Below, piece after piece: positions 313-58,582 of a stretch of 64,000 nucleotides of DNA. The notes under the pieces were generated by a model. That model had not been told where the DNA came from and ran no database searches. It saw nothing but the letters and a program-made list of their open reading frames with translations. Each line of letters opens with the position of its first letter. Positions within the stretch are counted from its first letter, which is position 1. The stretch is from Trypanosoma brucei (lineage: Eukaryota): contig AE017150.2 of NCBI GenBank assembly GCA_000002445.1, positions 1,088,001 through 1,152,000 of the forward strand, written 5' to 3'. Both the position numbers and the translations under genes were made by a program.

Positions 313-352
313 AGAGGGGAAGGGGACTTTGAGACGGTTAAGAATCTTTGTA

Positions 353-26586: not shown

Positions 26587-27546
26587 ATGACACGCGCCTC
26601 GCTTCCTGTTATTGATGTTTCGCCCCTATTTGGTGGCGAATCCGCAGAAAAGGAAAGGGTCTCCAAGCAGATTGATAATGCATGCAGAACATGGGGCTTC
26701 TTCTACATTGTGGGGCATCCGATCCAGCAGGAGCAGATTGAGAGGGTGCTAGATGTAGCGAAGAATTATTTTTCACTCCCCATGGAAGAGAAGCTCAAAT
26801 TGGACATTCGTAAAAGTAAGCTGTATCGTGGTTATATTGCTTTTGGGGCCGAGGACCCCGATGATGCTAAGGTCTACGGCTACGAGGGGTTCAATATGGG
26901 GCACCATCTTCCGAAGCACCACCCAGAGGTTATGGCAGGAGTGCCGCTCCGAGGACCGAACATCCACCCCACTCAGGTAAAGGGCTGGGCGGAGGAAATG
27001 GAAAATCAATATGACGATATGTGGGCCCTTTCACTTGTTATCCTGCGCGCTATGGCACTGGGACTCGGCCTGCGGGAAGATTTCTTCGACTCCAAGTTTA
27101 TGGATCCGATGTGTGAATTGAATATAAAGCATTACCCTTCCCCAACCACTACAGGCAAAAAATCTCATTTGCTTATTGAGCACGCTGACTTTTGCGCTAT
27201 TACATTACTCTATCAAGACGGTGTGGGTGGCTTGCAAATTCGAGGACTTTCCGGAGAGCTGATGGATGTGCCACCTGTTGAAGGAAGTTTTGTTGTCAAC
27301 ATTGGAGACATGATGGAGATGTGGACCAATGGCCAATACCGTTCTACCATGCACCGTGTTGTTCCGAGAAGTGGCACACGGTACTCCATGCCTTTTTTCT
27401 GTGTCCCAAACCCGAATGTCATTATTAAGTGCCTCGACAACTGTCATTCGGAGGAGAATCCACCAAGGTACCCTCCAGTGCGGGCTGTTGACTGGATTTT
27501 GAAGCGATTCGCGGAAGTGTTTTCGCTTGCAAAACCTAAAATGTAG
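26587..27546 (+). CDS. 2-oxoglutarate/Fe(II)-dependent dioxygenase, isopenicillin-N-synthase-like ('iron/ascorbate oxidoreductase' family), copy A (type I, with a divergent C-terminal tail); 319 aa
   Basis: DIOX_N-like N-terminus (LPVIDVSPLFGG...WGFFYIVGHPI). Iron-binding facial triad H-x-D...H (LLIEHADF ... STMHRVV) and the 2OG-binding R-x-S (RYSMPFF) are all present. The supplied ORF begins 66 nt earlier; the ATG at 26587 (MTRASLPV) is conserved in all four copies. Confidence 0.9.
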   Translation: MTRASLPVIDVSPLFGGESAEKERVSKQIDNACRTWGFFYIVGHPIQQEQIERVLDVAKNYFSLPMEEKLKLDIRKSKLYRGYIAFGAEDPDDAKVYGYEGFNMGHHLPKHHPEVMAGVPLRGPNIHPTQVKGWAEEMENQYDDMWALSLVILRAMALGLGLREDFFDSKFMDPMCELNIKHYPSPTTTGKKSHLLIEHADFCAITLLYQDGVGGLQIRGLSGELMDVPPVEGSFVVNIGDMMEMWTNGQYRSTMHRVVPRSGTRYSMPFFCVPNPNVIIKCLDNCHSEENPPRYPPVRAVDWILKRFAEVFSLAKPKM

Positions 27547-29940
27547 GAGTTCCTCTTAGTTTGCATTTCTTTTAGTATTTGCTTTATCAAGAATGGTATC
27601 AGGCCCTACGATTAGTAGTTGGTTTCAGATATGAATGATTTACATATGCGTAGTATCTGTCGTAATGCAAAAAGTTCTGTGATTTAAAATCTGTGTGAAG
27701 ACAGTACGGTAACGTATCTAGTCAGAATGAATATATTTCGCTCACTCTTTATTTTCAATGTAGGGAATTGTTAAAGGGGTAATAATATTTCTTTCACCTT
27801 TCCTCTTCTTTTTTCATTATCATCTTTGTAATGAATGCTGTAAGGCTATCTTTTATCCTACTTTGATATCTTCATCTATTTCCTTATTACATTGGATAAT
27901 GGATTGATATCTTCACTACGATGACAACTGAAGTATTCTGACAAACAATGGGTGCATGCTATTGTATGTTAGTTTGTGATGCAGTAGAGTCCTCCTTGGA
28001 AATATTTGTCTTTTTTTCCCTCTCTGAGGGGTTTCTACCTTTTTCTTTTCTCATTGCATTTTAAGGGTTAATTACGCATTAGAAATGCTACCCTTCACTT
28101 TGAAGTCATTCCTTCTTACACAGGTATTATTTTGATGCGATCTCATGCGAGGAGAATGGAGGTAGATGGAGAATGAAAAAAACTCACATTCTCCACCCAC
28201 CCAATGGAGAGCATACGTTTTACCATGGAAGTCGCGCTTGAAGTATCTCCCCAAGTAGAGCAAACTAATGAGGAATTAGCACCTAAGGGTTGCGTTGTTA
28301 AATATGTTGAAAGAGTGATGTGTATGTGGGGTTCGTACGTGAAGGATAAGGGATTTTGAGGGTGCTTACTCTTATTGTGTTTTTAATTTTTTTTCTTGAG
28401 AAAGGAGGGTGGCCAATTATATAATGTCACCTGACGAATGGGATTGCTGTGTATCACGCTGTTTGTAATTGTTACATATATTGGTAAGAAATAATTTTTT
28501 TTGTTATGTGAATTTCAATGCGTTTGATGTTTTTTGCCACCGCACTTATGTTGAGTCTGTTCTGTACCTCTTACTGTATGTTGAACATACCATTCTCTAT
28601 TATTTTCTCATTTTTTTGCCTCAGCTTTCCAGGGGAAACACATGTGGTACATATGAGATGGAATACACTAAACGACACCTAACACTGTGGGAGAATGTGA
28701 TAAATGCATGCAACTCAATAGTTGAGAAATGTGTATTTTCTACACCTTAACATCAATTTTTTTTTTGAAAAAGACAAACTCACTGAGTGTTTAGTGACTG
28801 CGCTTCTTCAAAAATTTTTCCCTCAAGGCGTATTATGCAATCGCGGAAAGTTATTTGTTTTCTGCTCCTTCTCCGCCTACTAATGATTTGTGTTTACACA
28901 TGTAGCTTCCTTTTTTATATTGTAAGTAATAGAAGACAAAAAAGGGGATATTATATATTACATATTTTATTTTGTATGTTAGCATGGTTGCATAATTTAT
29001 GCTGCTGTAGAGGCGTGTGTTATGGATTGTAGTATTTGGAGAAGTTGTTCGACTAAAAGCTATAAAAGCTTGCCCTGTGTGTGATGGATTTTTAATTTAT
29101 ATAAACTTGTTTAGCTTTATATTAGAATATAAATTTATTTATTGTCATTTAAATAGTTCCCCCATATGAGAAAACTAAATGAACACGTATATGTAAGTAT
29201 ATGTATATTTATATTCGCATATTTGTTGTTTATGTATATTATATCTGAGTAATGTTGGTAAGGTAAGAAAACGGCTGTGTAATAAATCATTTTTATTTGG
29301 TATGCTTTGAGTGCGCGCGCGTGGGTTCATTAGTTCTATTATCAGAAAAGGAAACTGCAATAATTGTTTCATTATTAAAAGTTCTTCATGACTCGTGTTT
29401 TTAAGTTTAGCATTTTGCTATTACTCAAATCATGTGAATTAAGGGAGGACTCATATCAGTATCATATGATGATATTTGAAACAATTTAGAGACGCCTGAT
29501 ATTACTCAATACTCTAACTCTTTTTTTTCCTTTCATATCCATTGCATTTATATTGTGATATGATAAGTTGATTTGTGTTAGCATTCAAATGCAGCATTGT
29601 TATTATTAATATTAACTTCCTTAAAGGAAATTAATTTGAAAGGAATGTTATTTTAAAAGGATTCAAATTGCAAGTAGTTATTCAGATAATGTTAATTGAT
29701 ACATAATTTTATATTTATTGTAGTTGTAGTAGTGTGCGTATTTCAACAAAGGTACCACTAATTTTGTAATTACTAAAAAGTTATAATGATACAATTCTAT
29801 TTCTTGATAATGTGAGTCCCTGAATTTGTTTTTCCCTTCATATTTTTCACTTTGCTTTTCTTTTCTTTCATTTCATATATGTTTTTCTTTTTGTTATATA
29901 GACAAACTTATTATATTATTATTTCAAGTAATTCAAAAAG

Positions 29941-31335
29941 ATGGCAATGCTTGGTTTCGAGTCGACAGCTGAATTTTTTGTCTATCTCACCTTCATCTTT
30001 TTTGGGATGTCGGTGATGAATGTGACGAATGCCATTTACTCCAATTATTATTTTTTTTGGGAATACTACAAGTTTGCGCAGGGTAATGAACATGCTGTTT
30101 CTGCAAATCCATCATTCTGGAAGCACATGTTCACGTATTATAATGTTGTCGTGTTTACCATGCAAGTGCTTTTGGAGGCCTTTATGCTCACACCATTGGG
30201 CCGACGCATTCCTATTAGTTGGCGTCTCTTTTTTGGACTCTCACTTCCCATGGTTGAAATCATTGTAATTTTGGTTATTCCTGCTGTTGGAGGAACAAGT
30301 GAGGGCGGTGCGATGGCAACTATGATGATAGTTGCTTTTGTTTGTGGTATTTCCATGACACTCTGTGACTCCAGCAATGCTGCACTTGCGGGACCGTTTC
30401 CAACTAAATTCTATGGTGCCACCGTGTGGGGTCTTGCTGTCTCTGGCCTCATGACTTCATTTTTGGCTATTGTTATCCAAGCATCAATGAAGGATAACTT
30501 TGAAAGCAGACGAACTCAGTCCCAAATATACTTTGGATTAGTCATGTTTCTTCAGGTGGTTGCATGCGTCCTTCTTGTCCTTCTGAGGAAAAACCCATAT
30601 GCCATTAAATATGCTGCAGAATTTAGGTATGCTGCGAGGAAGGATGGAAAGACAGATGATGGCGAAGATGAAAACGATGCAAAGGGAACAGGACCAGCAG
30701 ACGAAGATGGGTATCCTGATGAAAAAGAGAATAAGAATGTATTGAATGCTGATATTGATCCAGATAAGATGAAGGATACGGATCAGGTTGAAGGCACTAC
30801 CAACGCTCAGCAAATGCTTGATGCGAGTGTTATGGTTGTGGTGAAACGCATTTGGCCCATGTTACTATCTTGCTTCTTTGTATTCTTTGCGACACTTCTT
30901 GTATTCCCTGATGTATTTGTTGCTGTTAAAGAAGGGTTCCCAACTCATGGGGGATGGTACTTTACAATTGTTGTTGCCATGTTCAACTTGGGTGATTTCT
31001 TGTCTCGTCTTGTGCTGCAGTTCAAGCGGTTGCATGTGTCTCCGCGTATGGTCATGATTGGTTCATTTGCACGTGCACTGCTGATAATTCCTCTTTCGCT
31101 TTGTGCTGCCGGAACCATTCCTGGTGTGTGGCTTCCCTACACCGTTTCTCTCCTTTGGGGTCTCACAAATGGTTACTTTGGTGGCCTTTCAATGATTTAT
31201 GGACCACGTACGGGATCCCTCACCACAGCGGGTCAACGCTCTCTTGCTGCCATTTGCATTAATGTGGCTCTTTTACTCGGTCTTTTTGCTGGTGCTATGT
31301 TTGCATTGGCTGTTAAAGAGGGACTTCCTGAATAA
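29941..31335 (+). CDS. ENT-family nucleoside transporter, TbNT2-family, copy 2; 464 aa
   Basis: About 85-90% identical to copy 1. It is a mosaic of segments shared with the other copies. Confidence 0.92.
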   Translation: MAMLGFESTAEFFVYLTFIFFGMSVMNVTNAIYSNYYFFWEYYKFAQGNEHAVSANPSFWKHMFTYYNVVVFTMQVLLEAFMLTPLGRRIPISWRLFFGLSLPMVEIIVILVIPAVGGTSEGGAMATMMIVAFVCGISMTLCDSSNAALAGPFPTKFYGATVWGLAVSGLMTSFLAIVIQASMKDNFESRRTQSQIYFGLVMFLQVVACVLLVLLRKNPYAIKYAAEFRYAARKDGKTDDGEDENDAKGTGPADEDGYPDEKENKNVLNADIDPDKMKDTDQVEGTTNAQQMLDASVMVVVKRIWPMLLSCFFVFFATLLVFPDVFVAVKEGFPTHGGWYFTIVVAMFNLGDFLSRLVLQFKRLHVSPRMVMIGSFARALLIIPLSLCAAGTIPGVWLPYTVSLLWGLTNGYFGGLSMIYGPRTGSLTTAGQRSLAAICINVALLLGLFAGAMFALAVKEGLPE

Positions 31336-31409
31336 GTTTTGAAAATTTATGATACCTTCAAATAATGTGAAAAATTTTTTGTAACTAGTGAAATAAAAAA
31401 AAGCTCCGT

Positions 31410-31430
31410 GCTGGTATCAGCCAGGAGTGG
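31410..31430 (+). promoter_or_regulatory. Conserved 3'-flank hairpin motif (gctggtatcagccaggagtgg), 75 nt after the NT copy 2 stop
   Basis: Same motif as at 20957. Confidence 0.35.
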
Positions 31431-34400
31431 TTTTAATAATTTAAGAAAAAAAAGTAAAAAGGAGGAAATGAAGAATGGGAAATAACAATAAATTGTACGA
31501 ATAAGGATAATAGGGGACCCGGAAGCGAGCAAGCATGGATTTTATCTGTTTTATTCATGTTTATGGGGAATTTCTTTAAACATTATCGTATGTGTTTATC
31601 AATTTTTTTGCGGTGTATATACGTGTTGTTGAAGATACATTTTACATGGTCTAAAGAATATTGTGAGGAACTGAAGTTGTTGTCATGTTGCACTTATGTT
31701 GTTACCTTCTTATTTGTTATTATGCTGTTGTACAATCGATTCTAATAACATAATTTCTTTGAGTATCTTTTGAAGGTTATGTAATGTTCATATGGGAAAA
31801 TGAAGGTGCAGAACCATTCTTTGGTGTATACTCAATTTTTGTCTTCTGTTGGATCAATTTCTTTTTGTTGAAACAAAAAAGCAAAAAGGAGGAAATAAAA
31901 TATACGACTGTAGAAACATAAACGAACTATCAAAAAAAAAACACATATACATATTTATAATATGTGTTCTTTCTGCACACACAAAAAAAAAAGAAAAAAA
32001 TTGTATTAGTTACAATAATAAAAAATAGTGAAGCCAGCAGGAGGTGATAATTACAATTTGAACTCATCCCCTCTTGCCTATTTCACTATTCCCTTTGTTT
32101 CTTGAGAAAATAACTAAAACAGTAAAACAAGAGAGAGGATAGTAATAAATTGAATGAAATCAACAATACATTATTTTAAGAGGAAATTTGATTTTACTTT
32201 TTCTTTACTTTTCACTGTTTCTGTTTTTTGATTACTTTTACTTCCTTTCATTTCTTACTTTTTATTCCCATGACTGTGCTATGGTGTTACGGATATGTGT
32301 GTGTAAGTGAGGAATGTTGTGTGGATTTGCTTCTATTATTGTTTACTTGCCTTTGGTTGTATACCACACGCCTGCTTATGTTTTCCCATATGTGTACGCC
32401 TGCAGCAAACAGTGTGGGAATTTACTCCGTGACTTTTTCTCATAAATGTCGGGAGGCAAATGATTAAAGTGTTTTTTTTTGTTTAATATATCTGTATATG
32501 TTTGTCTGTTTATGTGTGTGTGTTTGTGTGTACGTATTTGACATGTTCAGCAATATGTTTAGATTATCCAATAATAACTTCTCTTCCTTTCTATCTCTTA
32601 TACAGTTATGTTGTTTACTTGTCACTGTTTTACTTTCAGGAAAGTGTATAAATTAAGCTGAAGCAACGTTATGTTTATTTGTGTATTAGGCGCATGAATT
32701 CATTTTCTAGCAGTTAATGTACGTATGCATACACGCATGTGTTTAACTTTATAATGTCTTATACTAAAAATGTATTCAAATATTGCCATGTGAATACCGT
32801 GTGAGGCTTATTGTATTTTTGTGTCGTGAAATAGTCAAGTAGTTGCTGTGTAACTTTTGTGTTATTCTTAAATAGATGACGTGTGTTTCCTTAGTTTAAA
32901 ATATTTAATAAATGATTTGACAGCTGCTTGCATGTGAGAGTTTCATCCCTCTTCTTTGCTTAAAAATGTGCAGAGACTAGAATCCTTCATATAAATGATG
33001 TGAAATGCATAAATTATAAATTGCATTTCCACTCTCACGTATTTTAGTATTATGAAGTATCAAATAGGGAAATGATGAAATATGTAATAGGAAGTTATTC
33101 ACAACATGTTAATAGAGCAATTCAACTTCGCAGCTATCACAGAACAGGCTTTTTATTGTAATGCTCAATTGTGGAATAAGACATGCTTTATGAATTCTTG
33201 AGGATGGAGCGTTGTAATATTTTTAAAAGTAATATAAGTAAACAAGCAAACAAATTATCGTTTTTGTTTCTTCCTTCATAATCACTATAAGCTAAGCTAT
33301 TAGTCTATTAACAATAATTAATATGGCTACTAGTAAGGCAAAAGACGAGAAATAAGAAATTAATTTATAGGAAAGATTTGATAGTTTGACGAATGTGTAA
33401 TTATCATGTCTCTGATACTAATGACGGATTATGATAGAGAGAATGTGATTTGTGAGGTAGTTTTGATTCTCTGAAGTGATACAGCGGCGCATGGGAACTC
33501 GTCGTAAGGAAAAAAAATAAATAATGTGCGGTATGTAATTTTTAAACCTCACATTGATGAGGTTGTGAGGCATAAAATAACTCTTGACATTTTCCCAACG
33601 TGGCCAACAGTCGAAGAACTGGTACAACACTGCAGTAATGATACAGTGATGTTAAATTGAAAGCGAAAAATAAATATGAATGGCGTAAAAAGGGGGAAGG
33701 AAGTAGTGATGGTGGCGTAATCGATTGTTACTGTGTTTCATGACAAATTCTCTACATTCAATGATTCTAGAGGAAACAAGTACGTACCATAGCAGTGGTT
33801 ACTGTGTTTCCATAAGGAGTAAGTTATATTTACTGGAAAATGTGGTATTAAGAAATGTTATATGTGAGTAGCAATATACCTCAACACAGAGATGTACGCT
33901 CATGTAATCACTACACAAAAACCTTCCGAATGTTTTGAACGCGTTGACCGGATTGATGCGTCTCTCCAACCTTGAGTTGAAATGCACAACCCTTGAGTGT
34001 TGAGTTGGGATACATATTTTTAGATGTCACTAGAGCTTGATGTGTGGAATGAAACTCTAGAGCTCATGCATATGGCTAATGCTTATCATCGTCGTAACTT
34101 CCATGTTGGTACGATGATGTGCAGTTTGCTGTTAGTGATAGCCTTCAGCAGATTGTATGGTAGGTGGTGTTTCTCTGTTTGTTTTCTGTCACAGATGGCA
34201 ATGGAAGCGTCGACTATCTTTTGTATTACTCAGAAGGGAAAATTCTCTTTTTAAGTAATGGTAATGTTGAATCGTTGATAAAACCAACGGAATAATCCAT
34301 AAGCTAGTTTTAATTGGAGGAAAGGAGAATAGGAGAACTGCCAACTTTGATGTGTTGCCAACAAAGGAAAACGAGTGGTATGTATATTTTAGAACCCAGT

Positions 34401-37002
34401 GTTTTTCTTTCTTATCCGATGTACTTCCCTAATGTTTGGATCTGAGAAATACCTAATGATGATTAATACGGTTAGAGTTAGGGCATTCTTTTGTGATGCT
34501 GAATATCGCATCTATTGATAACAGCAATCGATACGCCATACTCAAACATAAATGAATTCTCACACATTAACGCTGCTTCTGGTATCGCCAACCGTTATGT
34601 TCAATAGCTCGTTACGTGGGAGCATGAGTGGATGTAATGATGGATGCCGCTTCATCAAAGGCAGCTGCGTGATACTTATCTCAGAATATGTCAATGGTGT
34701 CGTATTATAGCCAAGTTTAAGTCTAATAATTAATCATAGTGATGTGTGTGGAAAAAGTGAGATTGTACCATTGCAGTGAGTGAACCGCTTTGCTTGGGAC
34801 GTATTGCATTGTGCTGTGTGATTAAGCGCCGAGTTTGTTCACATCATACGTATGATATTTAGTTACTGTCAACCCACCGGATTGGTGTGGGAGGAGTGTA
34901 AGGCATCGTGCGAGCATGGGACATATGTTTCATCGCAGTGTCACGGAGGTTTTAAGGTATGGTGGAATATGGGAGGTGGATTAGCTATAGATCTCTTTGT
35001 GCCTCCATCCCTTCGTGCTATGCTTTTTCTTTTCCCCTGAAACTGACACAGTCTGTAGAGGCAGTGTGCTGAAGCTTCGCTAAGGTTTTGAAAGCAGGAC
35101 TCACGACCCATCCCCCACTGTGTAATGTGTGATGACCAGATTTGTTCTGAGGGAGCATCAAACCAATCGTGTACGATGGAAGTGTAGAATAGGAAGTAAA
35201 GGAAAGTGTATTATTATGTGCAGATGCGTATGAGGCACTGCTCACAACACCTAAAGAAAGCAAAGTCACTCCTGACGGTTTTGATCATTTTATCAGTGTA
35301 TCACAATCTAATCATTTCTGCTGTAGAAGGTTCGTTGCATAGTTGTGTGTATTCTGCTTTCAGAGTTGACATTCTGTCACTTACCACTGTGGCGAGTGAT
35401 GACGATGATATCGTCGGCTTTCCGGTATGGAAGGAAGTATCACTTTACTCTTCTGCTCGTATAAGCGTGCTTTGTTCATCCGTGGAGCGGTGTTGTTATT
35501 GAAAAGGGGATGCTGAGTAGAGTGGTGACTCAACGCTTTTTCTTGTACTGAAGACATACTAAGAGGTTCTGTCAGCAGGACAGACTTGCGGTGGCCAGGT
35601 GGTTTCGCGACCTCAGGGACAACTTCCATATTGCACAAGGGGAACTTCTTCGTTTTGAGGTGACAGGGCGCATGCTAGTGTTAGGATATCTGTACATTGG
35701 AATGGCAAGGTCTTCCAGGGAAGGAAGGGAGGTGTATAAACCAGTGAAGGGCTGCACAGGTACTGTGTCAGGTATGAAAGTGATAGAGGTCTCTAAGGAA
35801 GTGTCAGATGTGATTATACTCGGCAAGAGGTTGCTGCTCAAGGTTTTGATTATATACTTTCCGAAACAATCAAATGTTGCGAAAATTACGTTGAAAGAAA
35901 GTTTAGGGGGAGCAATGGGATAAGGGAAACCCTCACTGGATTGTTTTGTCGGGTATACAGCATGATAAGTGGAAGGTTTGGTGGAGAAGCACGCAGGTAC
36001 ACCACACCCAATTGGTGGGAGAGTAGTAATGGCCGGGAGTATTTACCGTGAGTGACAACTCCAACAATGGATGCTAAGTAGTTAATGTTGAAATGTTTTA
36101 AAACGTTAGAGAAAGGAATGACTAAATGGTTGTAGGTACGTAAATTGTGGGAAGCACTGAGGGAAAATGATGTAATGATGCGACGGACCAAGGGACTCGA
36201 ATACCCAATATATTACAAGAAACGCTACTATTGAGTTGGGTGCAGAAACAAGTGAGAGACAAGCTGTTTGGGTAGTTGAAGTATCGACCACTGGGAAGGG
36301 TGAAGCGTGGGCAGGAAGGATCATCAAATCTTATCCTCCTTTCAGTTAATATGACTGAAGAAGCGAGAAAAGAAAAAGAATGGTTGTGAAAAGAGAAATT
36401 AGCGAAAAAGAATTAGTAGAAGCAATTGTGGCGTCAAAAAAGACGTTAAGGGTAGCGTTAGTACAAATAGAAAAGCAGCCAACTCTAAAAAATTGGTTTC
36501 CGACGTAAAGGAAGCGGTAACAGGTGAATAAAACTATTTAATTTGTACCAGTTTACATGTATGAAAATGACCTCATATGTGTGTGATTTGCTCCTGTTAA
36601 CTCGGTGAACATCGGAACTGACACGTTGCTCTGTGCTATTGTAGCAATGCACTCCAGTGTGATATCACTGGAACTATGAAACCTTATATTTCTTATGGCG
36701 TTGTATCAGTGCTTCCACTATGGTATCATTATGTTAACGTGAGCAGTATATTGTCACGTGGTGGACAACATGTCAACTAGTTTGTTTAAACTGTTGCTCT
36801 CTTGACAGCTTGTAATTCGTATCATTCTGTTGTGTGCTTTTTTTTGTCTTGTTTATTCCCCTGAGATATTACTGGTAAGTCCCCCTTTATCCTAATTTTT
36901 GCATCTGCACTGGCTGTTTAAGCGGACCCTTTCCAATTGTTAGGCACAAAACGGTACATATATATATATTTCAAGAAAGCAACAGTGTGTAATTTAGAAA
37001 CC

Positions 37003-37962
37003 ATGACACGCGCCTCGCTTCCTGTTATTGATGTTTCGCCCCTATTTGGTGGCGAATCCGCAGAAAAGGAAAGGGTCTCCAAGCAGATTGATAATGCATG
37101 CAGAACATGGGGCTTCTTCTACATTGTGGGGCATCCGATCCAGCAGGAGCAGATTGAGAGGGTGCTAGATGTAGCGAAGAATTATTTTTCACTCCCCATG
37201 GAAGAGAAGCTCCAATTGGACATTCGTAAAAGTAAGCTGTATCGTGGTTATATTGCTTTTGGGGCCGAGGACCCCGATGATGCTAAGGTCTACGGCTACG
37301 AGGGGTTCAATATGGGGCACCATCTTCCGAAGCACCACCCAGAGGTTATGGCAGGAGTGCCGCTCCGAGGACCGAACATCCACCCCACTCAGGTAAAGGG
37401 CTGGGCGGAGGAAATGGAAAATCAATATGACGATATGTGGGCCCTTTCACTTGTTATCCTGCGCGCTATGGCACTGGGACTCGGTCTGCGGGAAGATTTC
37501 TTCGACTCCAAGTTTATGGATCCGATGTGTGAATTGAATATAAAGCATTACCCTTCCCCAACCACTACAGGCAAAAAATCTCATTTGCTTATTGAGCACG
37601 CTGACTTTTGCGCTATTACATTACTCTATCAAGACGGTGTGGGTGGCTTGCAAATTCGAGGACTTTCCGGAGAGCTGATGGATGTGCCACCTGTTGAAGG
37701 AAGTTTTGTTGTCAACCTTGGAGACATGATGGAGATGTGGACCAATGGCCAATACCGTTCCACAAAGCATCGTGTGGTAGCCACAGACAAGGAACGGTAC
37801 TCCATGCCTTTCTTTTGCAATCCCAATCCGAATGTCATCGTCAAGTGCCTCGACAACTGTCACTCGGAAGAGAATCCACCAAGGTACCCTCCAGTGCGGG
37901 CTGTTGATTGGGTTTTGAAGCGGTTCGCGGAGGCATATGGGAAAGATTACTCAAAAATGTAG
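37003..37962 (+). CDS. 2OG-Fe(II) dioxygenase, IPNS-like family, copy B (type I); 319 aa
   Basis: Identical to copy A over residues 1-270 except K/Q at position 71. The HxD...H and RxS motifs are present (IEHADF, STKHRVV, RYSMPFF). Confidence 0.9.
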   Translation: MTRASLPVIDVSPLFGGESAEKERVSKQIDNACRTWGFFYIVGHPIQQEQIERVLDVAKNYFSLPMEEKLQLDIRKSKLYRGYIAFGAEDPDDAKVYGYEGFNMGHHLPKHHPEVMAGVPLRGPNIHPTQVKGWAEEMENQYDDMWALSLVILRAMALGLGLREDFFDSKFMDPMCELNIKHYPSPTTTGKKSHLLIEHADFCAITLLYQDGVGGLQIRGLSGELMDVPPVEGSFVVNLGDMMEMWTNGQYRSTKHRVVATDKERYSMPFFCNPNPNVIVKCLDNCHSEENPPRYPPVRAVDWVLKRFAEAYGKDYSKM

Positions 37963-41741: not shown

Positions 41742-41812
41742 TAAGTATTTTCTAAACTCTAAGTAATGTCATAACATTTTTTTTAATTAATGAGAAAGAA
41801 CATTAAATATAT

Positions 41813-50451: not shown

Positions 50452-51843
50452 ATGGCAATGCTTGGTTTCGAGTCGACAGCTGAATTTTTTGTCTATCTCA
50501 CCTTCATCTTTTTTGGGATGTCGGTGATGAATGTGACGAATGCCATTTACTCAGTCCCTGATTTTTTTTCTGATTATTATAAATTTGTTAAAAATGAGGA
50601 AAAAGCGAAACCTGTCAATGCATCGTTCTGGAAGCACATGTTCACGTATTATAATGTTGTTGTGTTTACGATGCAAGTGGTTTTGGAGGCTTTTATGCTC
50701 ACACCATTGGGCCGACGGATTCCTATTAGTTGGCGTCTCATCTTTGGACTCACAATTCCTATGGGTGAGATCATTGCAATTTTAGTGATTCCTGCTGTTG
50801 GAGGAAGTGAAAATTGTGCAATTGCAACTGTTATGATGGTTGCTTTTGTTGGTGGTATTTCCAAAACACTTTGTGACTCCAGCAATGCTGCACTTGCGGG
50901 ACCTTTTCCGACTAAATTCTATGGTGCCATCGTGTGGGGCCTTTCCGTGTCCGGTATGATTACTTCATTTATGGCTATTGTCATTAAAGCATCGATGAAG
51001 GATAGTTTTGAAAGTAAGAGAGTTCAGTCCCAAATATACTTTGGATTAGTCATGCTTCTTCAGGTGGTTGCATGCGTGCTTCTTGTCCTTCTGAGGAAAA
51101 ACCCATATGCCATTAAATATGCTGCAGAATTTAGGTATGCTGCGAGGAAGGATGGAAAGACAGATGATGGCGAAGATGAAAACGATGCAAAGGGAACAGG
51201 GCCAGCAGACGAAGATGGGTATCCTGATGAAAAAGAGAATAAGAATGTATTGAATGCTGATATTGATCCAGATAAGATGAAGGATACGGATCAGGTTGAA
51301 GGCACTACCAACGTTCAGCAAATGCTTGATGCGAGTGTTATGGTTGTGGTGAAACGTATTTGGCCCATGTTACTTTCATGCTTTTTTGTGTTCTTTGCGA
51401 CACTTCTTGTATTTCCTGGTGTATTCTTTGCTGTTAAAGATGGATTAAATGTTAAAAATGGATGGTACTTTACTATTGTCATTGCCATGTTCAACTTTGG
51501 TGATTTCCTTACGAGGCTTCTTCTTCAGTTCAAGCAGCTGCACCTGTCTCCACGCATGGTTATGATTGGTTCATTTGCACGTGCACTTTTGATAATTCCG
51601 CTTTCATTATGTGCAGCTGGTACCATTCCTGGTATATGGCTTCCCTACACCGTTTCTCTCCTTTGGGGTCTTACGAACGGTTACTTTGGTGGTTTAACAA
51701 TGATTTATGGACCACGTACGGGATCCCTCACCACAGCGGGTCAACGCTCTCTTGCTGCCATTTCTACAAATGTATCACTACTTTCGGGTCTCTTTGTTGG
51801 TGCTATGTTTGCATTGGCTGTTAAGGAGGGACTTCCTGAATAA
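50452..51843 (+). CDS. ENT-family nucleoside transporter, TbNT2-family, copy 4; 463 aa
   Basis: Distinct TM1-TM2 loop (SVPDFFSDYYKFVKNEEKAKPVNASFWKHM). Its central loop is identical to those of copies 2 and 5. Confidence 0.92.
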   Translation: MAMLGFESTAEFFVYLTFIFFGMSVMNVTNAIYSVPDFFSDYYKFVKNEEKAKPVNASFWKHMFTYYNVVVFTMQVVLEAFMLTPLGRRIPISWRLIFGLTIPMGEIIAILVIPAVGGSENCAIATVMMVAFVGGISKTLCDSSNAALAGPFPTKFYGAIVWGLSVSGMITSFMAIVIKASMKDSFESKRVQSQIYFGLVMLLQVVACVLLVLLRKNPYAIKYAAEFRYAARKDGKTDDGEDENDAKGTGPADEDGYPDEKENKNVLNADIDPDKMKDTDQVEGTTNVQQMLDASVMVVVKRIWPMLLSCFFVFFATLLVFPGVFFAVKDGLNVKNGWYFTIVIAMFNFGDFLTRLLLQFKQLHLSPRMVMIGSFARALLIIPLSLCAAGTIPGIWLPYTVSLLWGLTNGYFGGLTMIYGPRTGSLTTAGQRSLAAISTNVSLLSGLFVGAMFALAVKEGLPE

Positions 51844-51903
51844 ATTCTCAATAATTGTAAAAATTACAATTAATACAATTTTTTTTTTTAAAAAAGGCTC
51901 CAT

Positions 51904-51924
51904 GCTGGTATCAGCTAGGAGTGG
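51904..51924 (+). promoter_or_regulatory. Conserved 3'-flank hairpin motif (gctggtatcagctaggagtgg), 61 nt after the NT copy 4 stop
   Basis: Same motif as at 20957. Confidence 0.35.
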
Positions 51925-54900
51925 TTTTAACGATGAAAATAATAAAAAAAATAAAATAGGAAAAGATAAGACAAAAAGGGGTTAATTCTAGGAAAGTGAA
52001 TAATATGACACATGGCAGCAAGCAAGCATATACGTGCATATGTTATGTAGTTTTGAGGTAAAAGTGACGCAAAGAAAAGTGTTAGTCGGTTACAAACGCA
52101 TCGCGCAAAGTACGATACGGCGGAGTTCTGCAAGCTTGTACCATGACAGTATTTCACTATTTTGTTAACTAACATGGATTTCACCTCTAAGATATGGTTT
52201 TAAGGGTAAGGGTTGTAAATTGTGAAATTGTATTGACGATCTCACTCATTAGTGCAAACCTTTGATACACTTTACTGTTTACTTTTGATGCAACACAAAA
52301 TTTGTGTGAAAGAAAGAGCTATACTTCAGCTTGTAGCGTTTTCAGTGCGCTTATTTTCATCACATGTGTGCAAACGAGTAAAAAAATGATGTGAACCCGA
52401 AAAGTCTTATTACTTTTCCTTTTATTCCCATGACCGTGCTATGGTGTTACGGATATGTGTGTAAGTGAGGAGTGTTGTGTGGATTTGCTTCTATTATTGT
52501 TTACTTGCCTTTGGTTGTATACCACACACCTGCTTATGTTTTCCCATATGTGTACGCCTGTAGATAACAGTGTGGGAGTTTACTCCGTGACGTTTTCTCA
52601 CAAATGTCTAGAGGCAAATGATTAAAGTAATTTTTTTGTTTAATGTATATCTGTATATGTTTGTCTGTTTATGTGTATGTGTGTTTGTGTGTACGTATTT
52701 GACATGTTCAGCAATATGTTTAGATTATCCAATTATATCTTTTCTTTTCTATTTTCTTATATTGTTTACTTGTCACTGTTTTACTTTCAGGAAGGTATAT
52801 AAATTAAGCTGAAGCAACGTTATGTTCATTTGTGTATTAGACACATGAGTTTATTTCCAAGCAGATGATATATGCGTGAACGCGTGTGTTTAACTTTATA
52901 ATGTCTTATACTAAAGATGTATCCAAATATTGCCATGCTAATACCTTGTGAGGCTTATTGTACTTTTGTGTTGTGAAATAGTCAAGTAGTTGCTGTGTAA
53001 CTTTTGTGTTATTTTTTAGATAATGTGTGTTTTCTTAGTCTAATATCTTTAATAAATGATTTGACAGCTGCTTGCATGTGAGGGTTTCATTCCTCTTCTT
53101 TGCTTAAAAATGTGCAGAGACTGGAATCCTTTATATAAATGAAGTGAAATGCATAACTTATAAATTGCATTTCCACTTTCACATATTGTAATATTATTGA
53201 GTATCAAAAGGGAAATGATGAATCATGTAATAGGAAGTCATTCACAACATGGTAATAGAGCAATTCATCTTCGAAGCTATAACGGAACAAGCTTTTTATT
53301 GTAATGCTTATTTGTGGAATAGCTCATGCTTTATGAATGCTTGAGGATGGAGCGTTGTAATATTTTTAAAAGTAATATAAGTAAACTAGCAAACAAATTA
53401 TCGTTTTTGTTTCTTCCTTCATAATCACTATAAGCTAAGCTATTAGTCTATTAGCAATAATTAATATGACTACTAGTAGGGCAAAAGACGAGAAATAAGA
53501 AATTAATTTATAGGAATGATTTGATAGTTTGAAGGGTGTGTAATTATCATGTCTCTTATACTAATGACGGATTATGCTAGAGAGAATGTGATTTGTGAGG
53601 TATTTGTGATTCTCTGAAGTGATACAGCGGTGCATGGGAACTCGTCGTAAGGATAAAAAAAATAAATAATGTGCGGTATGTAATTTTTAAACCTCACATT
53701 GATGAGGTTGTGAGGCATAAAATAACTCTTGCCATTTTCCCAACGTGGCCAACAGTCCAAGAACTAGTGTAGTACTGCAGTAATGATACAGTGATGTTAA
53801 ATTGAAAGCGAAAAATAAATATGAATGGCGTAAAAAGGGGGAAGGAAGTAGTGATGGTGGCGTAATCGATTGTTACTGTGTTTCATGACAAATTCTCTAC
53901 ATTCAATGATTCTAGAGGAAACAAGTACGTACCATAGCAGTGGTTACTGTGTTTCCATAAGGAGTAAGTTATATTTACTGGAAAATGTGGTATCAAGAAA
54001 TGTTATATGTGAGTAGCAATATACCTCAACACAGAGATGTACGCTCATGTAATCACTACACACAAAAAAGTTCTGAAAGTTTTGAACGCGTTGAGCGGAT
54101 TGATACGTCTCTCCAACCTTGAGTTGAAATGCGCAACCCTTGAGTGTTGAGTTGGGATACATATTTTTAGATGTCACTAGAGCTTGATGTGTGGAATGAA
54201 ACTCTAGAGCTCATGCATATGGCTAATGCTTACCGTGGGCAAAACTTGTCGATGTTGGTACGATGATATGCGATTTGTTGGCAGTGATAGCTTTCAGCGG
54301 ATTGTATGGTAGGTGGTGTTTTTTTTTCTGCCACAGGCGGCAATGGCAGTGTTGACTAATTTTTGAATTACTCAGAAGGGAAATTTCTCTGTTTAAGTGA
54401 TGATCATGTTGAATCGTTGATAAAATCAACGGAATTATCCATAATTAGTTTTAATTGGAGGAAAATGAAATAGGAGAACTGCCCACGTTGATGTGTTGCG
54501 GACAAAGAAAAGTGAGTGGTATGCATATTTTAGAACCCAGTATTTTTCTTTCTCATCTGATGTGCTTCCCTAATGTTTGGATCTGAGGAATACCTAATGA
54601 TGATTAATGCGGTTAGAGTTAGGGCATTCTTTTGTGATGCTGAATATTGTATCTATTGATAACAACAATCGATACGCCATACTCAAACATAAATGAATTC
54701 TCACACATAAACGCTGCTTCTGGTATCGCCAACCGTTATGTTCAATAGCTCGTTACGTGGAGCATGAGTGGATGTGACAGTGAATGTTCCTTCATCAAAG
54801 ACAGCTGCGTGATGCTTAACTCAGAATATGTCAATGGTATCGTATTATAGCCAAGTTTAAGTTTAATAATTAATAATAGTGATGTGTGTGGGAAAAGTGA

Positions 54901-57622
54901 GATTGTACCATTGCAGTGGGTGAACCGTTTCGTTTGGGACGTATTGCATTCTGCTGTGTGATTAAGCGCCGAGTTTTTCTGCAAATATACGTATGATATT
55001 TAGTTGCTGTCGACCCGCCGAATCGGTGTGTGGTTAGTGTAAAGCATTATGCGAACATAGGTTAGTAATGCACAGTGTTTAGAAGGCGAATGTGCCATTC
55101 AAGTAACCTTGATTTATACGTAACGTTTCTTACCTTTTTGTGGTGTTTCACTGTGATCATTCCGAGCGATGTAGTTTATGCTGTTAATGTCACTCAAAGC
55201 AATCTGATATTTTTTATGATTGTCACTGCAGCATCTCTTTCTACAAGTTTCTTTACTTTTTTTAAAAAAAGGCATCATTATAAAGCTTGAAAAAGATGTC
55301 ATAGCTCTTTAACCCTTTACACCCTCTCAAAATATGCCATGAAAAATGTAAAACTTGCCAGTTGTTTTCACGGTTGCGGCTCTGTAAGAAAGTGAATATT
55401 TCACACTTTGGAGAGCTAATTTTGCTACGAAGTGGTTAAGGCCACCTATTCGCAGTGGCAGCCCTTGAGGTGAAAACCACATATACTAACGTATCGACAG
55501 CAGTAATGAGGACATGTGTCAGCATGGGACGTATGTTTCACTACAGTGTCACAGAGGTTTTAAAGCACAGTGGGCACGGGAGGTGAATTAGTTGTAGATC
55601 TCTTTGTGCCTTAACCTTTCGTGCTATTCTTTTTTTTCTCTCTGGAACTGATACAGTCTGGGGAGGCAGTGTGCTCAAGCTTTGCTAAGTTTTTGGAAGC
55701 AGGACTCACGACCCATCCCCCACTGTGTAATGTATGATGACCAGATTTGTTCTGAGGGAGCGTCAAACCAATCGTGTACGATGGGCGTGTAGAACAGGAA
55801 GTAAAGGAAGGTGTGTTATTATATGCAAATGCAGATGAAATACTGCTCACAACACCTAAAGAAAGCAAAGTCACTCCTGACGGTTTTGATCATTTTATCA
55901 GTGTATCACAATCTAATCACCTTTGCTGCTGTAGAAGGCTCATTGCATAGTTGTGTGTATTTTGCTTTCAGAGCTTGAGACAACCAGTCACTTACCGACC
56001 ACTGTGGAGAGTGATCACGATGATGTCGTCGGCTTTCCTGTATGGAAGGAAGTATCATTTTGCTCTTCTGCTCGCGTAATTGTGTTCCTTTGTGTATCCG
56101 TGGAGTAGCGTTGTTATTGAAAAGAGGGATGATGAGTAGAATGGCGACTCAACACTTTTTCTTGTACTGAAGAAATACCAAGAGTTTTTTTCAGCAGGAC
56201 AGACCTGCGGTGGCCATGTGGTTTAGATACCTCAGGGACAACTTCCATATTGCACAAGGAGAACTTCTGCGTCTTGAGGTGGCATGGCGCATGCTAGTGT
56301 TGGGATATCTGTACATTGGAATAGCAAGGTCTTCCAGGGAAGGAAGAGGGATACATAAGCCAGTGAAGGGCTGCACAGGTGCTGTGTCAGGTGTGAAGGT
56401 GATAGATGGCTCTAAGGAAGTGTCAGATGTGATTATACTCGGCAAGAGGTTGCTGCTCAAGGTTTTGATTATATACTTCCCGAGACGATCAAATGTCGCG
56501 TAACTTACGTTGGAAGAAAGTTTAGGGGGAGCAATGGGATGAGGGAAGTCCCCACTGGATTGTTTGGTCGGATATACAACATGATAAGTGGAAGGTTTGT
56601 TGAAGAAGAACGCAGGTACACCACATCCAATAGGTGAGAAGGCAGTAATGGCCGGGTGCATTTGCTGTGAGTGAAAACTTTAACAATGGATGCTAAGTAG
56701 TTAATGTTGAAATGTTTTAAAACGTTAGAGAAAGGAATGACTAAATGGTTGTAGGTACGTAAATCGTGGGACGCACTAAGGGAAAATGATGTAGTGGTGC
56801 GATGGAGCAAGGGACTCGAATACCCAATATATTACAAGAAACGCTACTGTTGAGTTGGGTGCAGAAACAAGTGAGAGACAAGCTGTTTGGGTAGCTGAAG
56901 TATCGACCACTGGGAAAGGTGAAGCGTTGGCAGGAAGGATCATCAAATCTCATCCTCATTTCATTTAGTATGACTGAGGAAGCGAGGGAAGGAAAGGAAT
57001 GGTTGTGAAGGGAGCAAGTAGTGAAAGCAAAATAGTAGAAGCAATTGTGGCGTCAAATAAGATGTGAAGGGTAGCGGTAGTACAAATAGAAAAGCAAAAC
57101 CAAGTTAAAAAAATTGGTTGCCGACGTCAAGGAAGCGGGGACAGGTGAATAAAATTATGTAATTCGTACCAGTTTAAATGTATTAAAATGAACTCTGATG
57201 TGTGTGATTTGCTACTGTTAACTCGGTGAACATCGGAACTGATACGTTGCTCTGTGCTATTGTAGCAGTGCACTCCAGTGTGGTATCACTGGAACTATAA
57301 AACCTTATATTTCTTATGGCGTTGTATCAGTGCTTCCACTATGGCATCATTGTGTTAACGTGAGCAGTATATTGTCACGTAGTGGACAACATGTCAACTA
57401 GTTTGTTTAAACTGTTGCTCTCTTGACAGTTTGTAGTTCGTATCACTCTGTTGTTTGCTTTTCTTGTCTTGTTTATTCCCCTGAGATATTACTGGTAAGT
57501 CCTCCTTTATCCTAATTTTTGTATTTACGCCGGCTGTTGAAGCGGAACCCTTCCAATTATTAGGCACAAAACGGTACATATATATATATTACAAGAAAGC
57601 AACAGTGTGTAATTTAGAAACC

Positions 57623-58582
57623 ATGACACGCGCCTCGCTTCCTGTTATTGATGTTTCGCCCCTATTTGGTGGCGAATCCGCAGAAAAGGAAAGGGTCTCC
57701 AAGCAGATTGATAATGCATGCAGGACATGGGGCTTCTTCTACATTGTGGGACATCCGATTCAGCAGGAGCAGATTGACAAAGTACTTAAGTTAGCTGATA
57801 CTTTTTTCTCTCTTCCTATGGAGGAGAAGCTCAAATTGGACGTTCGCAAGGGTAGACTTTATCGTGGTTACACTGCCCCTGGAGTAGAGGAAGCTGATGT
57901 AGGGAAGGTTTACACGTACGAGACCTTTACGACGGGATACCATCTTCCTAAGCACCATCCAGACGTCATGGCAGGCAAACCGCTCCGAGGACCGAATATC
58001 CACCCCACTCAAGTGAGGGGATGGATGGAGGGTATGGAAGGTCATTACCGCGATATGTGGGCACTTGCGCTTGTCCTCCTGCGCGCTATGGCGCAAGCTA
58101 TCGGTTTGCAGGAAGATTTCTTCGACTCCAAGTTTATGGATCCCCTTTGTGAATTGAATATAAAGCACTACGTTCCCTTATCTCAAACGAAAGAAGAAAC
58201 TACTTTGCTCATTGAGCACAGCGATTTCGGTGTTATGACGTTACTCTATCAAGACGCTTCAGGTGGCTTGCAAGTACGTGATAGTTCCGGAGAGCTGATG
58301 GATGTGCCACCTGTTGAAGGAAGTTTTGTTGTCAACCTTGGAGACATGATGGAGATGTGGACCAATGGCCAATACCGTTCCACAAAGCATCGTGTGGTAG
58401 CCACAGACAAGGAACGGTACTCCATGCCTTTCTTTTGCAATCCCAATCCGAATGTCATCGTCAAGTGCCTCGACAACTGTCACTCGGAAGAGAATCCACC
58501 AAGGTACCCTCCAGTGCGGGCTGTTGATTGGGTTTTGAAGCGGTTCGCGGAGGCATATGGGAAAGATTACTCAAAAATGTAG
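57623..58582 (+). CDS. 2OG-Fe(II) dioxygenase, IPNS-like family, copy D (type II); 319 aa
   Basis: Identical to copy C except residue 285 (V/I) and residue 305 (V versus I). Confidence 0.9.
   Translation: MTRASLPVIDVSPLFGGESAEKERVSKQIDNACRTWGFFYIVGHPIQQEQIDKVLKLADTFFSLPMEEKLKLDVRKGRLYRGYTAPGVEEADVGKVYTYETFTTGYHLPKHHPDVMAGKPLRGPNIHPTQVRGWMEGMEGHYRDMWALALVLLRAMAQAIGLQEDFFDSKFMDPLCELNIKHYVPLSQTKEETTLLIEHSDFGVMTLLYQDASGGLQVRDSSGELMDVPPVEGSFVVNLGDMMEMWTNGQYRSTKHRVVATDKERYSMPFFCNPNPNVIVKCLDNCHSEENPPRYPPVRAVDWVLKRFAEAYGKDYSKM

What the first reader, a model, noticed from the sequence alone, without database searches (positions are those of the whole stretch)
26587..58582. Two sequence types of the co-amplified 2OG oxygenase with shared termini: mosaic paralogues
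Copies A and B (type I) and copies C and D (type II) are identical over the first ~55 residues and, for B, C and D, over the last ~100 residues. They differ extensively across a central ~165-residue block that contains the HxD half of the iron-binding triad (IEHADF versus IEHSDF). Copy A additionally has a unique C-terminal tail (...PRSGTRYSMPFFCVPNPNVIIKC...AEVFSLAKPKM versus ...ATDKERYSMPFFCNPNPNVIVKC...AEAYGKDYSKM). All copies retain H-x-D...H and R-x-S, so all are probably active enzymes. The central substrate-binding block exists in two ancient alleles that were homogenised at both ends by conversion.
Basis: seen in the sequence. Interest (0 to 1): 0.5.

Follow-up and report, generated by a model that had tools for sequence, protein, structure and literature searches.

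The report
Recombinant oxygenase paralogues in trypanosome array
Four tandem copies of an uncharacterised iron/2-oxoglutarate oxygenase on Trypanosoma brucei chromosome 2 are patchworks of two old sequence types shuffled by gene conversion, which is real but was already reported for this array in 2010.

Summary
The window is T. b. brucei TREU927 chromosome 2. It holds the known array in which nucleoside-transporter genes alternate with "iron/ascorbate oxidoreductase" genes (Tb927.2.6180 and following). Copies A-D match XP_951747/49/51/53 exactly, and a fifth copy lies beyond the window.

Identity breakpoints are very sharp: variable sites switch pattern 10 times in the CDS against 78 expected (0 of 10,000 shuffles).

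- **A** is pure type I. Its "unique" tail is the native type I 3' end, identical in T. b. gambiense and T. b. equiperdum.
- **D** is pure type II.
- **B** is a chimaera. From CDS nt 663 to +2448 it is 100% identical to D (1786 nt).
- **C** has a type I upstream flank and becomes type II about 80-245 nt before the ATG.
- **5' end:** nt -32..+101 are homogenised in TREU927 but differ at 10 sites in gambiense.
- **Central block:** nt 156-662 are truly older. Four-fold sites differ at 0.54, against 0.22 in the 3' CDS and about 0.10 in the flanks. It is under purifying selection (dN/dS about 0.24).

The conversion reading is largely right, but the tracts are unit-scale (0.1-2.7 kb) and only B is homogenised at the 3' end. 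Jackson et al. 2010 already reported recombination in this array (PHI p<0.001, GARD 3 breakpoints). Interest is low.

The parts
26587..27546 (+). Copy A: pure type I oxygenase CDS (exact match to XP_951747). Type I central block and type I 3' end.
   Evidence: Residues 52-319 are 100% identical to T. b. gambiense P0122.
37003..37962 (+). Copy B: chimaeric CDS (XP_951749). Type I up to nt 662, type II from nt 715.
   Evidence: Breakpoint lies between nt 662 and 715, Fisher p = 2.5e-121.
47099..48058 (+). Copy C: type II CDS (XP_951751) sitting behind a type I upstream flank.
57623..58582 (+). Copy D: pure type II CDS (XP_951753) with type II flanks on both sides.
   Evidence: The T. equiperdum OVI contig L004 shares its flank states.
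26555..26687 (+). 5' homogenised tract (nt -32..+101 relative to the ATG), shown here in A. The same tract is at 36971-37103, 47067-47199 and 57591-57723. There is 1 difference in 133 nt between types I and II.
   Evidence: The gambiense copies differ at 10 sites in -6..+96.
26742..27248 (+). Ancient central block (CDS nt 156-662), type I version. B carries it at 37158-37664. The type II version is at 47254-47760 and 57778-58284. It encodes the HxD motif and two hypervariable loops.
   Evidence: p-distance 0.27, four-fold sites 0.54, dN/dS 0.24.
37665..37716 (+). Junction of chimaera B: 52 nt (CDS nt 663-714) identical in all copies and in all strains examined. The I-to-II switch lies within it.
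37665..39450 (+). Conversion tract in the B unit: 1786 nt with zero mismatches to the D unit (58285-60070). It is bounded on both sides and spans the CDS 3' third plus about 1.5 kb of 3' flank.
   Evidence: supported.
27301..29001 (+). Native type I 3' segment of the A unit (CDS nt 715 to +2415). It is 80-90% identical to B/C/D and shared with the gambiense and equiperdum type I copies.
46854..47022 (+). Patchy junction upstream of C (-245..-77), where the C unit changes from type I flank (like A and B) to type II (like D).
47016..47958 (+). C-D identity tract: 943 nt with 1 mismatch to 57540-58482.
23966..26417 (+). Type I upstream flank, >=99% identical in the A, B and C units (B about 34402-36835, C about 44480-46904). 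The D unit is about 10% diverged here.
19481..64000 (+). The tandem array of ~10.1-10.5 kb units. Each unit holds one ENT-family nucleoside transporter (starts at 19481, 29941, 40353, 50452, 60974) and one oxygenase.
   Evidence: Literature: PMC2771046.

Best explanation
This is the nucleoside-transporter / 'iron-ascorbate oxidoreductase' tandem array at the right end of T. b. brucei TREU927 chromosome 2. The oxygenase exists as two old paralogous unit types. Type I is represented by A and type II by D, and by E beyond the window.

Repeated non-reciprocal homologous recombination (gene conversion) between misaligned ~10.4 kb units has pasted tracts of 0.1-2.7 kb from one unit into another. Junctions fall in stretches of sequence identity. 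The result has layers of different age:
- a central CDS core (nt 156-662) that has escaped homogenisation for a long time;
- an intermediate layer, about 10% diverged, comprising the flanks and probably the 3' third of the CDS;
- a recently homogenised 5' patch (-32..+101);
- very recent tracts that make B a type I/type II chimaera and give C a type I upstream region.

**Shown here:** the tracts, their breakpoints and their relative ages.

**Inferred:** the conversion mechanism itself, and the reason the core escapes. The core may escape because selection retains two enzyme variants, or because about 27% mismatch blocks recombination.

All copies encode folded IPNS/T7H-like Fe(II)/2OG oxygenases under purifying selection. 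Their substrate is unknown.
For: **Identity of the locus**
- Exact protein matches to TREU927 XP_951747/49/51/53 on a 1,193,948-bp contig.
- The array is described in PMC2771046.

**Blocks and tracts**
- Pattern runs: aaab from -1965 to -84, aabb from -76 to +662, abbb from +715 to +2415. They are non-random in permutation tests.
- B equals D over 1786 nt with 0 mismatches, and the identity ends on both sides. This is a patch, not a simple crossover.

**Other strains**
- Gambiense and T. b. equiperdum type I copies share A's states through the CDS 3' end and the first ~640 nt of 3' flank.
- T. equiperdum OVI type II shares D's states in the CDS and in both flanks over the ~1 kb each side that the contig covers.
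- Gambiense copy 2 and the equiperdum copy switch to type II flank at about +1600-1720. This is an independent junction.

**Age layers**
- p-distances and four-fold-site differences are given.
- dN/dS is 0.21-0.26.

**Fold**
- The AF2 model has pLDDT 89.9.
- Foldseek hits Anc357, PaIPNS and T7H at E of about 1e-30 to 1e-33.

**Published tests**
- On this same array, PHI gave p<0.001 and GARD gave 3 breakpoints (PMC2854126 Table 2).
Against: - The mechanism is inferred from sequence patterns only. Unequal crossing-over followed by further events could produce some of the same junctions.
- Chimaera B is seen only in the TREU927 assembly among the sequences I could reach, so it has no independent confirmation.
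- Four-fold-site counts are small (48 and 27 sites).
- Differences in the 3' block are clustered (nt 759-791 and 930-951), which inflates NG86 dS (0.71) and makes its age uncertain.
Confidence: 0.85

Rival explanations
1. The central core of one type was imported by ectopic conversion from a dispersed, highly diverged paralogue that shares homology only within the CDS. On this view it was not preserved in situ since an ancient tandem duplication.
For: - The strongly diverged segment lies inside the CDS. Four-fold sites differ at 0.54 there, while both flanks differ by only about 0.10.
- T. brucei has dispersed paralogues, including Tb09.211.4990 (P0003), which is gained and lost between strains.
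Against: - P0003 is not the donor. It is 60-61% identical to both types in the central block.
- No other T. brucei protein appears among the close hits.
- Block-wise identities give the same ranking in every block: types I and II are closest to each other, then Tb09.211.4990, then other species.
Confidence: 0.12
2. The mosaic, and chimaera B in particular, is an assembly artefact of a collapsed or mis-joined 10-kb tandem repeat.
For: - B is found only in TREU927 among the accessible sequences.
- Arrays are evidently collapsed in other assemblies: 2 oxygenase copies in gambiense and 1 in T. b. equiperdum.
Against: - B's junction interval is only 52 nt of shared identity. Any ordinary Sanger read crossing it would carry type-specific sites on both sides, so a mis-join needs chimaeric reads (inference).
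- Types I and II are each confirmed independently in other genomes.
- Other I/II junctions exist in gambiense and equiperdum at different positions.
Confidence: 0.04
3. The central block differs because of rapid diversifying selection on a substrate pocket, not because it is old.
For: - The differences include residues next to the catalytic residues: 184, 200, 203-205 and 218.
- They are concentrated in two loops, 84-106 and 184-194.
Against: - dN/dS is 0.24 in the block.
- Four-fold synonymous sites in codons with unchanged amino acids differ at 0.54, against 0.22 in the 3' block. The excess is therefore also at silent sites.
Confidence: 0.05

Closest known systems
Sequence mosaics in T. brucei tandem gene arrays (Jackson 2007, BMC Evol Biol 7:54; Jackson et al. 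2010, PLoS NTD 4:e658, Table 2 row 12bii 'Iron-ascorbate oxidoreductase, Tb927.2.6180')
   Same: It is the same locus and the same phenomenon. The published row lists 5 copies in T. b. brucei, 2 in T. b. gambiense, PHI p<0.001 and 3 GARD breakpoints in the 960-nt alignment. My CDS-internal boundaries, at about nt 96-102, 155 and 663-714, could correspond to those 3 breakpoints; the table gives their number only, not their positions.
   Different: The paper gives only a table row for this array. What is added here:
- breakpoint coordinates;
- the assignment of A as pure type I, D as pure type II, and B and C as recombinants;
- the 1786-nt tract in which B equals D;
- the extension of tracts into the flanks;
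- the age layering.
NT2-NT7 nucleoside transporter / oxidoreductase array of chromosome 2 (Jensen et al. 2009, BMC Genomics 10:482)
   Same: The paper describes the alternating arrangement next to the subtelomeric VSG cluster. Both gene sets are more highly expressed in bloodstream forms, the oxidoreductases by 3.3-13.2 fold.
   Different: There is no sequence-type analysis in that paper. The oxidoreductases are stated there to be functionally uncharacterised.
IPNS-subfamily Fe(II)/2OG oxygenases: PaIPNS (6JYV), reconstructed ancestor Anc357 (9OVH), fungal thymine-7-hydroxylase (5C3P/Q)
   Same: - DIOX_N and 2OG-FeII_Oxy domains.
- HxD...H triad and RxS motif.
- DSBH fold, with TM-score 0.79-0.91 (either normalisation) and 29-38% identity.
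   Different: - Neither PaIPNS nor Anc357 has a known prime substrate.
- The T. brucei proteins replace the conserved Arg that binds the 2OG C1-carboxylate and the substrate (T7H Arg190, Anc357 Arg181) with Asn179.
- They also replace several other family-invariant residues.

Membership tests
Fe(II)/2-oxoglutarate oxygenase, IPNS-like subfamily (Pfam DIOX_N + 2OG-FeII_Oxy) | Both Pfam domains score above the gathering thresholds | tested here: met
   DIOX_N scores 114-116 bits (cut-off 27.3). 2OG-FeII_Oxy scores 85-94 bits (cut-off 23). This holds for type I and type II.
Fe(II)/2-oxoglutarate oxygenase, IPNS-like subfamily (Pfam DIOX_N + 2OG-FeII_Oxy) | HxD...H facial triad and RxS 2OG C5-carboxylate motif | tested here: met
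   H199, D201, H256, R265 and Y183 are invariant columns of a 48-sequence alignment, S267 is nearly invariant (at least 90%), and all six are present in all four copies.
Fe(II)/2-oxoglutarate oxygenase, IPNS-like subfamily (Pfam DIOX_N + 2OG-FeII_Oxy) | Double-stranded beta-helix fold | tested here: met
   The AF2 model has pLDDT 89.9 and pTM 0.90. Foldseek gives E = 6e-33 to 9ovh, 5e-32 to 6jyv and 2e-30 to 5c3p.
Fe(II)/2-oxoglutarate oxygenase, IPNS-like subfamily (Pfam DIOX_N + 2OG-FeII_Oxy) | Conserved Arg on the strand before the 2OG-binding Tyr (T7H Arg190, EFE Arg171, Anc357 Arg181) | tested here: not met
   This position is Arg in 44 of 44 non-brucei homologues. It is Asn179 in types I and II and Thr in Tb09.211.4990 (register; role).
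Thymine-7-hydroxylase (name carried by Leishmania and T. cruzi homologues) | Substrate-contact residues Phe292, Tyr217, Arg190 and Asn294 of NcT7H | tested here: inconclusive
   Mapping is by motif register only.
- F271 is present.
[quoted passage not shown]
- The Arg190 equivalent is Asn.
- The Asn294 equivalent (residue 273) is Asn in type II and B, and Val in A.
- Overall identity to T7H is only 29-30%.
- No activity data exist.
Gene-conversion mosaics in tandem arrays (concerted evolution) | Discrete tracts of near-identity with sharp boundaries between otherwise diverged paralogues, non-random in a recombination test | tested here: met
.
Gene-conversion mosaics in tandem arrays (concerted evolution) | Non-reciprocal transfer: a tract bounded on both sides, with the donor left unchanged | tested here: met
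   B equals D over 37665-39450 and 58285-60070. B departs from D on both sides of this tract, and D remains type II throughout. Whether the transfer was truly non-reciprocal cannot be proven from one genome.

The most novel reading that the evidence does not exclude
Selection, not chance, keeps the two oxygenase cores apart. On this reading T. brucei keeps two bloodstream-expressed enzyme variants, plus a third in hybrid B, with remodelled active sites (Arg179 to Asn; type-specific residues at 184, 200, 203-205, 218, 255 and 273). They would act on different nucleobase or nucleoside-like substrates. Their co-amplification with transporters of different specificity would then form a functional salvage or modification module. 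Conversion would homogenise the regulatory flanks while being purged from the specificity-determining core.
Probability: 0.12. Interest if true: 0.5.

Novelty: already known. Interest (0 to 1): 0.15.

Why it matters
The finding mainly confirms a textbook-style example of concerted evolution in a trypanosome tandem array, and recombination there has already been published. The extra detail here is exact tracts, a naturally occurring hybrid enzyme (B), and an old core flanked by younger DNA. That detail would matter only if the oxygenases prove to have a role in bloodstream-form purine or pyrimidine metabolism. In that case the two types and the chimaera would be ready-made specificity variants to test.

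Tried and rejected
- **DNA of the fifth copy E and of Tb09.211.4990.** TREU927 is not on record in the contig look-up, so only their protein sequences were used.
- **Tb09.211.4990 as donor of one central block.** Rejected: it is 60-61% identical to both types.
- **Positive selection as the cause of central divergence.** Rejected: dN/dS is 0.24 and silent sites are also highly diverged.
- **My own first reading that the central and 3' blocks are the same age.** This rested on NG86 dS of 0.91 versus 0.71. I revised it after the four-fold-site analysis gave 0.54 versus 0.22, p = 0.008. Clustered multi-nucleotide changes inflate the NG86 value.
- **Conserved synteny of oxygenase with transporter.** Not found in Leishmania donovani or in a related African-trypanosome assembly. 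The linkage was therefore not seen outside the T. brucei group among the two other genomes examined.
- **Mapping variable residues onto 3D coordinates.** Model coordinates are not exposed. I used secondary structure, pLDDT and motif-register mapping to T7H and Anc357 instead. T7H Asn87 and Glu122 could not be placed reliably.
- **The antisense 156-aa ORF upstream of A and D.** Judged not to be a gene.
- **Jackson 2007 (PMC1855330).** Its main text does not mention this array.
Full report
**What the window is**

ORF density, the domain content and exact protein look-ups identify the window as Trypanosoma brucei brucei TREU927 chromosome 2.
- The genes before the array encode a PI-PLC-X domain protein, coatomer beta', a RanBP zinc-finger protein and an ABC transporter.
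- From about 18.2 kb to the window end there is a tandem repeat of 10.1-10.5 kb units. Each unit carries an ENT-family nucleoside transporter and a 319-codon DIOX_N/2OG-FeII_Oxy oxygenase.
- The four oxygenase proteins match XP_951747, XP_951749, XP_951751 and XP_951753 exactly. All are 'iron/ascorbate oxidoreductase family protein, putative' on a 1,193,948-bp contig.
- A fifth copy (XP_951755, P0001) lies beyond the window.
- Jensen et al. 2009 (PMC2771046) describe this arrangement. NT2-NT7 alternate with uncharacterised oxidoreductase genes next to the subtelomeric VSG cluster, and both sets are up-regulated in bloodstream forms.

**Checking the observation**

- Residues 1-51 are identical in all four copies.
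- Residues 52-221 are 99-100% identical within A/B and within C/D, but 67% identical between the pairs. The motif is HADF in one pair and HSDF in the other.
- Residues 223-319 are identical in B and D and nearly so in C. A is 82% identical to them.

At the nucleotide level, the four CDS were aligned with 2.5 kb of flank on each side. Variable sites fall into long uninterrupted runs of one pattern:
- {A,B,C} versus D from -1965 to -84;
- {A,B} versus {C,D} from -76 to +662;
- A versus {B,C,D} from +715 to +2415.

Shuffling site order never reproduces this clustering. In the CDS there are 10 pattern switches against 78 +/- 5 expected, and over -2000..+2450 there are 57 against 372 +/- 10. In both cases 0 of 10,000 shuffles reach the observed value.

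**What the pattern means**

I added the two T. b. gambiense copies (L001, L002), a T. b. equiperdum copy (L003) and a T. equiperdum OVI contig (L004). This resolves the types.

| Copy | Upstream flank | CDS nt 156-662 | CDS nt 715 to +2415 |
|---|---|---|---|
| A | type I | type I | type I |
| B | type I | type I | type II |
| C | type I | type II | type II |
| D | type II | type II | type II |

- The gambiense and equiperdum type I copies share A's states through the centre, the CDS 3' end and the first ~640 nt of 3' flank. A's 'unique' tail is therefore the native type I 3' end. At the protein level it is 100% identical to gambiense over residues 52-319.
- The OVI type II contig shares D's states in the CDS and in both flanks, over the roughly 1 kb on each side that the contig covers.
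- B switches from type I to type II within the 52-nt stretch nt 663-714, which is identical in all copies (Fisher p = 2.5e-121).
- From nt 663 to +2448, B is identical to D over 1786 nt with no mismatch (37665-39450 and 58285-60070). Beyond that point B departs from D again. This is a bounded patch, as expected for gene conversion, and D is not B's neighbour in the array.
- C carries a type I upstream flank, >=99% identical to A and B for about 2.4 kb. It changes to type II in a patchy zone at -245..-77, and is then identical to D for 943 nt apart from one mismatch.
- Gambiense copy 2 and the equiperdum copy switch to a type II-like flank at about +1600-1720. This is an independent junction in other lineages.

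**The 5' end**

Between -32 and +101 the two TREU927 types differ at 1 of 133 positions. Immediately downstream they differ at 21-27 per 100 nt, and upstream at about 8-10 per 100 nt.

The gambiense type I copies carry 10 substitutions in -6..+96, three of them non-synonymous. Over the remaining 804 nt of CDS they differ from A at only 6 positions. This localised discordance is direct evidence that the short 5' tract was replaced in one lineage.

**Age layers**

A versus D compares pure type I with pure type II.

| Region | p-distance or four-fold-site difference |
|---|---|
| 5' and 3' flanks | p about 0.10 (range 0.045-0.137) |
| nt 156-662 | p = 0.27 |
| nt 715-957 | p = 0.20 |
| Beyond +2416 | p = 0.02-0.04 |
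| Four-fold sites, codons 1-51 | 1/23 = 0.04 |
| Four-fold sites, codons 52-221 | 26/48 = 0.54 |
| Four-fold sites, codons 222-238 | 0/10 |
| Four-fold sites, codons 239-319 | 6/27 = 0.22 |

- The four-fold counts use only codons whose amino acid is unchanged.
- Central versus 3' differs significantly (Fisher p = 0.008).
- The same sites against an outgroup African-trypanosome orthologue are saturated at 0.67-0.74.
- The 3' block's raw divergence is dominated by two dense clusters, at nt 759-791 and 930-951. These inflated my first NG86 estimate of dS, 0.71 against 0.91 for the central block.

The 3' CDS looks closer in age to the flanks. dN/dS is 0.21-0.26 throughout, which indicates purifying selection. 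A versus gambiense gives dS of about 0.03, so the type split far predates the subspecies.

**Protein level**

An AlphaFold2 model of type II, built from a 48-sequence alignment, is confident: pLDDT 89.9 and pTM 0.90. It matches IPNS-subfamily oxygenases: reconstructed ancestor Anc357 (9OVH), P. aeruginosa 'IPNS' (6JYV) and N. crassa thymine-7-hydroxylase (sequence search).

The 56 central differences are distributed as follows:
- 7 in helix 48-62;
- 13 in positions 84-106, a loop of low pLDDT plus one strand;
- 9 in the long helix 134-159;
- 10 in loop 184-194, which has low pLDDT. The corresponding loop is disordered in the Anc357 crystal;
- others directly beside catalytic residues: 184 next to the 2OG-binding Tyr183, 200 as the x of HxD, 203-205, and 218.

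Pocket elements also lie in the 3' block:
- residue 255, just before the distal His;
- residues 260-264, just before the RxS motif;
- residue 273, which is the register equivalent of T7H Asn294;
- the C-terminal helix, which covers the pocket in T7H.

B is therefore a natural hybrid of a type I HxD side and a type II distal-His, RxS and lid side. The mapping rests on motif register and secondary structure, not on 3D distances, because model coordinates are not exposed.

**Caveat on 'probably active'**

All copies keep the triad and the RxS motif. However, the whole T. brucei clade, meaning types I and II and Tb09.211.4990, has replaced residues that are invariant in 44 of 44 other homologues. 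These are R50, D98, S176, R179, G197, W225 and S247, plus Y202 in the chromosome-2 copies.

R179 aligns with Anc357 Arg181 and, by motif register, with T7H Arg190. That Arg binds the 2OG C1-carboxylate and the substrate, and its mutation largely abolishes T7H activity. Purifying selection argues that the proteins are functional, but their chemistry or substrate may differ from that of their relatives. Even the closest solved relatives have no known prime substrate.

**Comparison with what is known**

Jackson et al. 2010 (PMC2854126) compared the tandem arrays of T. b. brucei and T. b. gambiense. Their Table 2 lists this very array (row 12bii, 'Iron-ascorbate oxidoreductase', Tb927.2.6180). It records 5 versus 2 copies, PHI p<0.001 and 3 GARD breakpoints in 960 sites. 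[quoted passage not shown]

The phenomenon, the locus and the conclusion that the copies are recombinant mosaics are therefore published. This analysis adds coordinates, donor-recipient relations, tract lengths, the extension into the flanks and the age layering. The oxygenase-transporter linkage is absent in Leishmania donovani and in a related African-trypanosome assembly.

**Verdict**

- Novelty: already known.
- Interest: low (0.15).
- Residual interest: whether selection keeps the two cores distinct for different substrates, which only biochemistry and population data can answer.

Noticed in passing
window 26587-58582 (all four oxygenase CDS), residue 179 and others: The whole T. brucei clade of this oxygenase has replaced residues invariant in 44 of 44 other trypanosomatid and bacterial homologues: R50Q, D98T/G, S176C, R179N, G197I, Y202F, W225L and S247T. 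R179 corresponds to the Arg that binds the 2OG C1-carboxylate and the substrate in T7H and EFE. This suggests altered chemistry or substrate.
   Followed up: partly
P0018 (Leishmania donovani) versus P0027 (Pseudomonas sp.); hit list: Trypanosomatid orthologues are 59% identical to Pseudomonas proteins. That is higher than Leishmania versus the T. brucei array copies (about 52%). Hundreds of Pseudomonas hits sit at 49-52% identity to the T. brucei protein. This is a candidate bacterium-to-kinetoplastid horizontal transfer, with fast evolution in T. brucei.
   Followed up: partly
window 25154-25624 (-) and 56191-56661 (-): A 156-aa antisense ORF lies about 1 kb upstream of A and D, and is called as a gene in the T. 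b. gambiense record. Its start codon is lost in the B and C units. Between the A and D units, dN/dS is about 0.54, with changes spread over all codon positions. It is probably not a gene.
   Followed up: yes
window 52011-53461 and 62550-64000; 21394-21940 and 31814-32363: The nucleoside-transporter part of the units is also a mosaic.
- Transporter CDS differ by 5-25%.
- Their 3' regions fall into classes: U1 equals U2, and U4 equals U5 over 1451 nt (1856 alignment columns) with no mismatch. U3 is distinct.
   Followed up: partly
window about 55100-55550 (upstream of D, beyond -2070 relative to its ATG): The D unit carries a stretch of a few hundred nt that does not align with the A, B and C units. 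Identity in these bins is 0.28-0.48, and there is an indel block at alignment columns 5000-5500. Its nature was not examined.
   Followed up: no
window 27345-27377 and 27516-27537 (A, CDS nt 759-791 and 930-951) versus the same positions in B, C and D: Type I/II differences in the 3' third of the CDS are packed into two runs of near-consecutive substitutions. These cover codons 254-264 (PRSGT versus ATDKE, just before the RxS motif) and codons 310-317 (the C-terminal tail). There are few changes between the runs. The first run coincides with a loop that is disordered in the Anc357 crystal.
   Followed up: partly
window 161-1429 (+): This ORF has a PI-PLC X domain. It lies upstream of the array, where the GPI-specific phospholipase C gene (Tb927.2.6000, named in PMC2837033) would be expected. 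Its identity was not verified by exact look-up.
   Followed up: no
L001/L002 (T. b. gambiense FN554965.1, 846312-877657) and L003 (T. b. equiperdum CM010673.1): These assemblies hold only 2 and 1 oxygenase copies, all with a type I CDS. Yet the last copy in each has a type II-like 3' flank from about +1700. Either the arrays are collapsed in assembly or type II CDS were lost. A separate T. equiperdum OVI contig (L004) does carry type II.
   Followed up: partly
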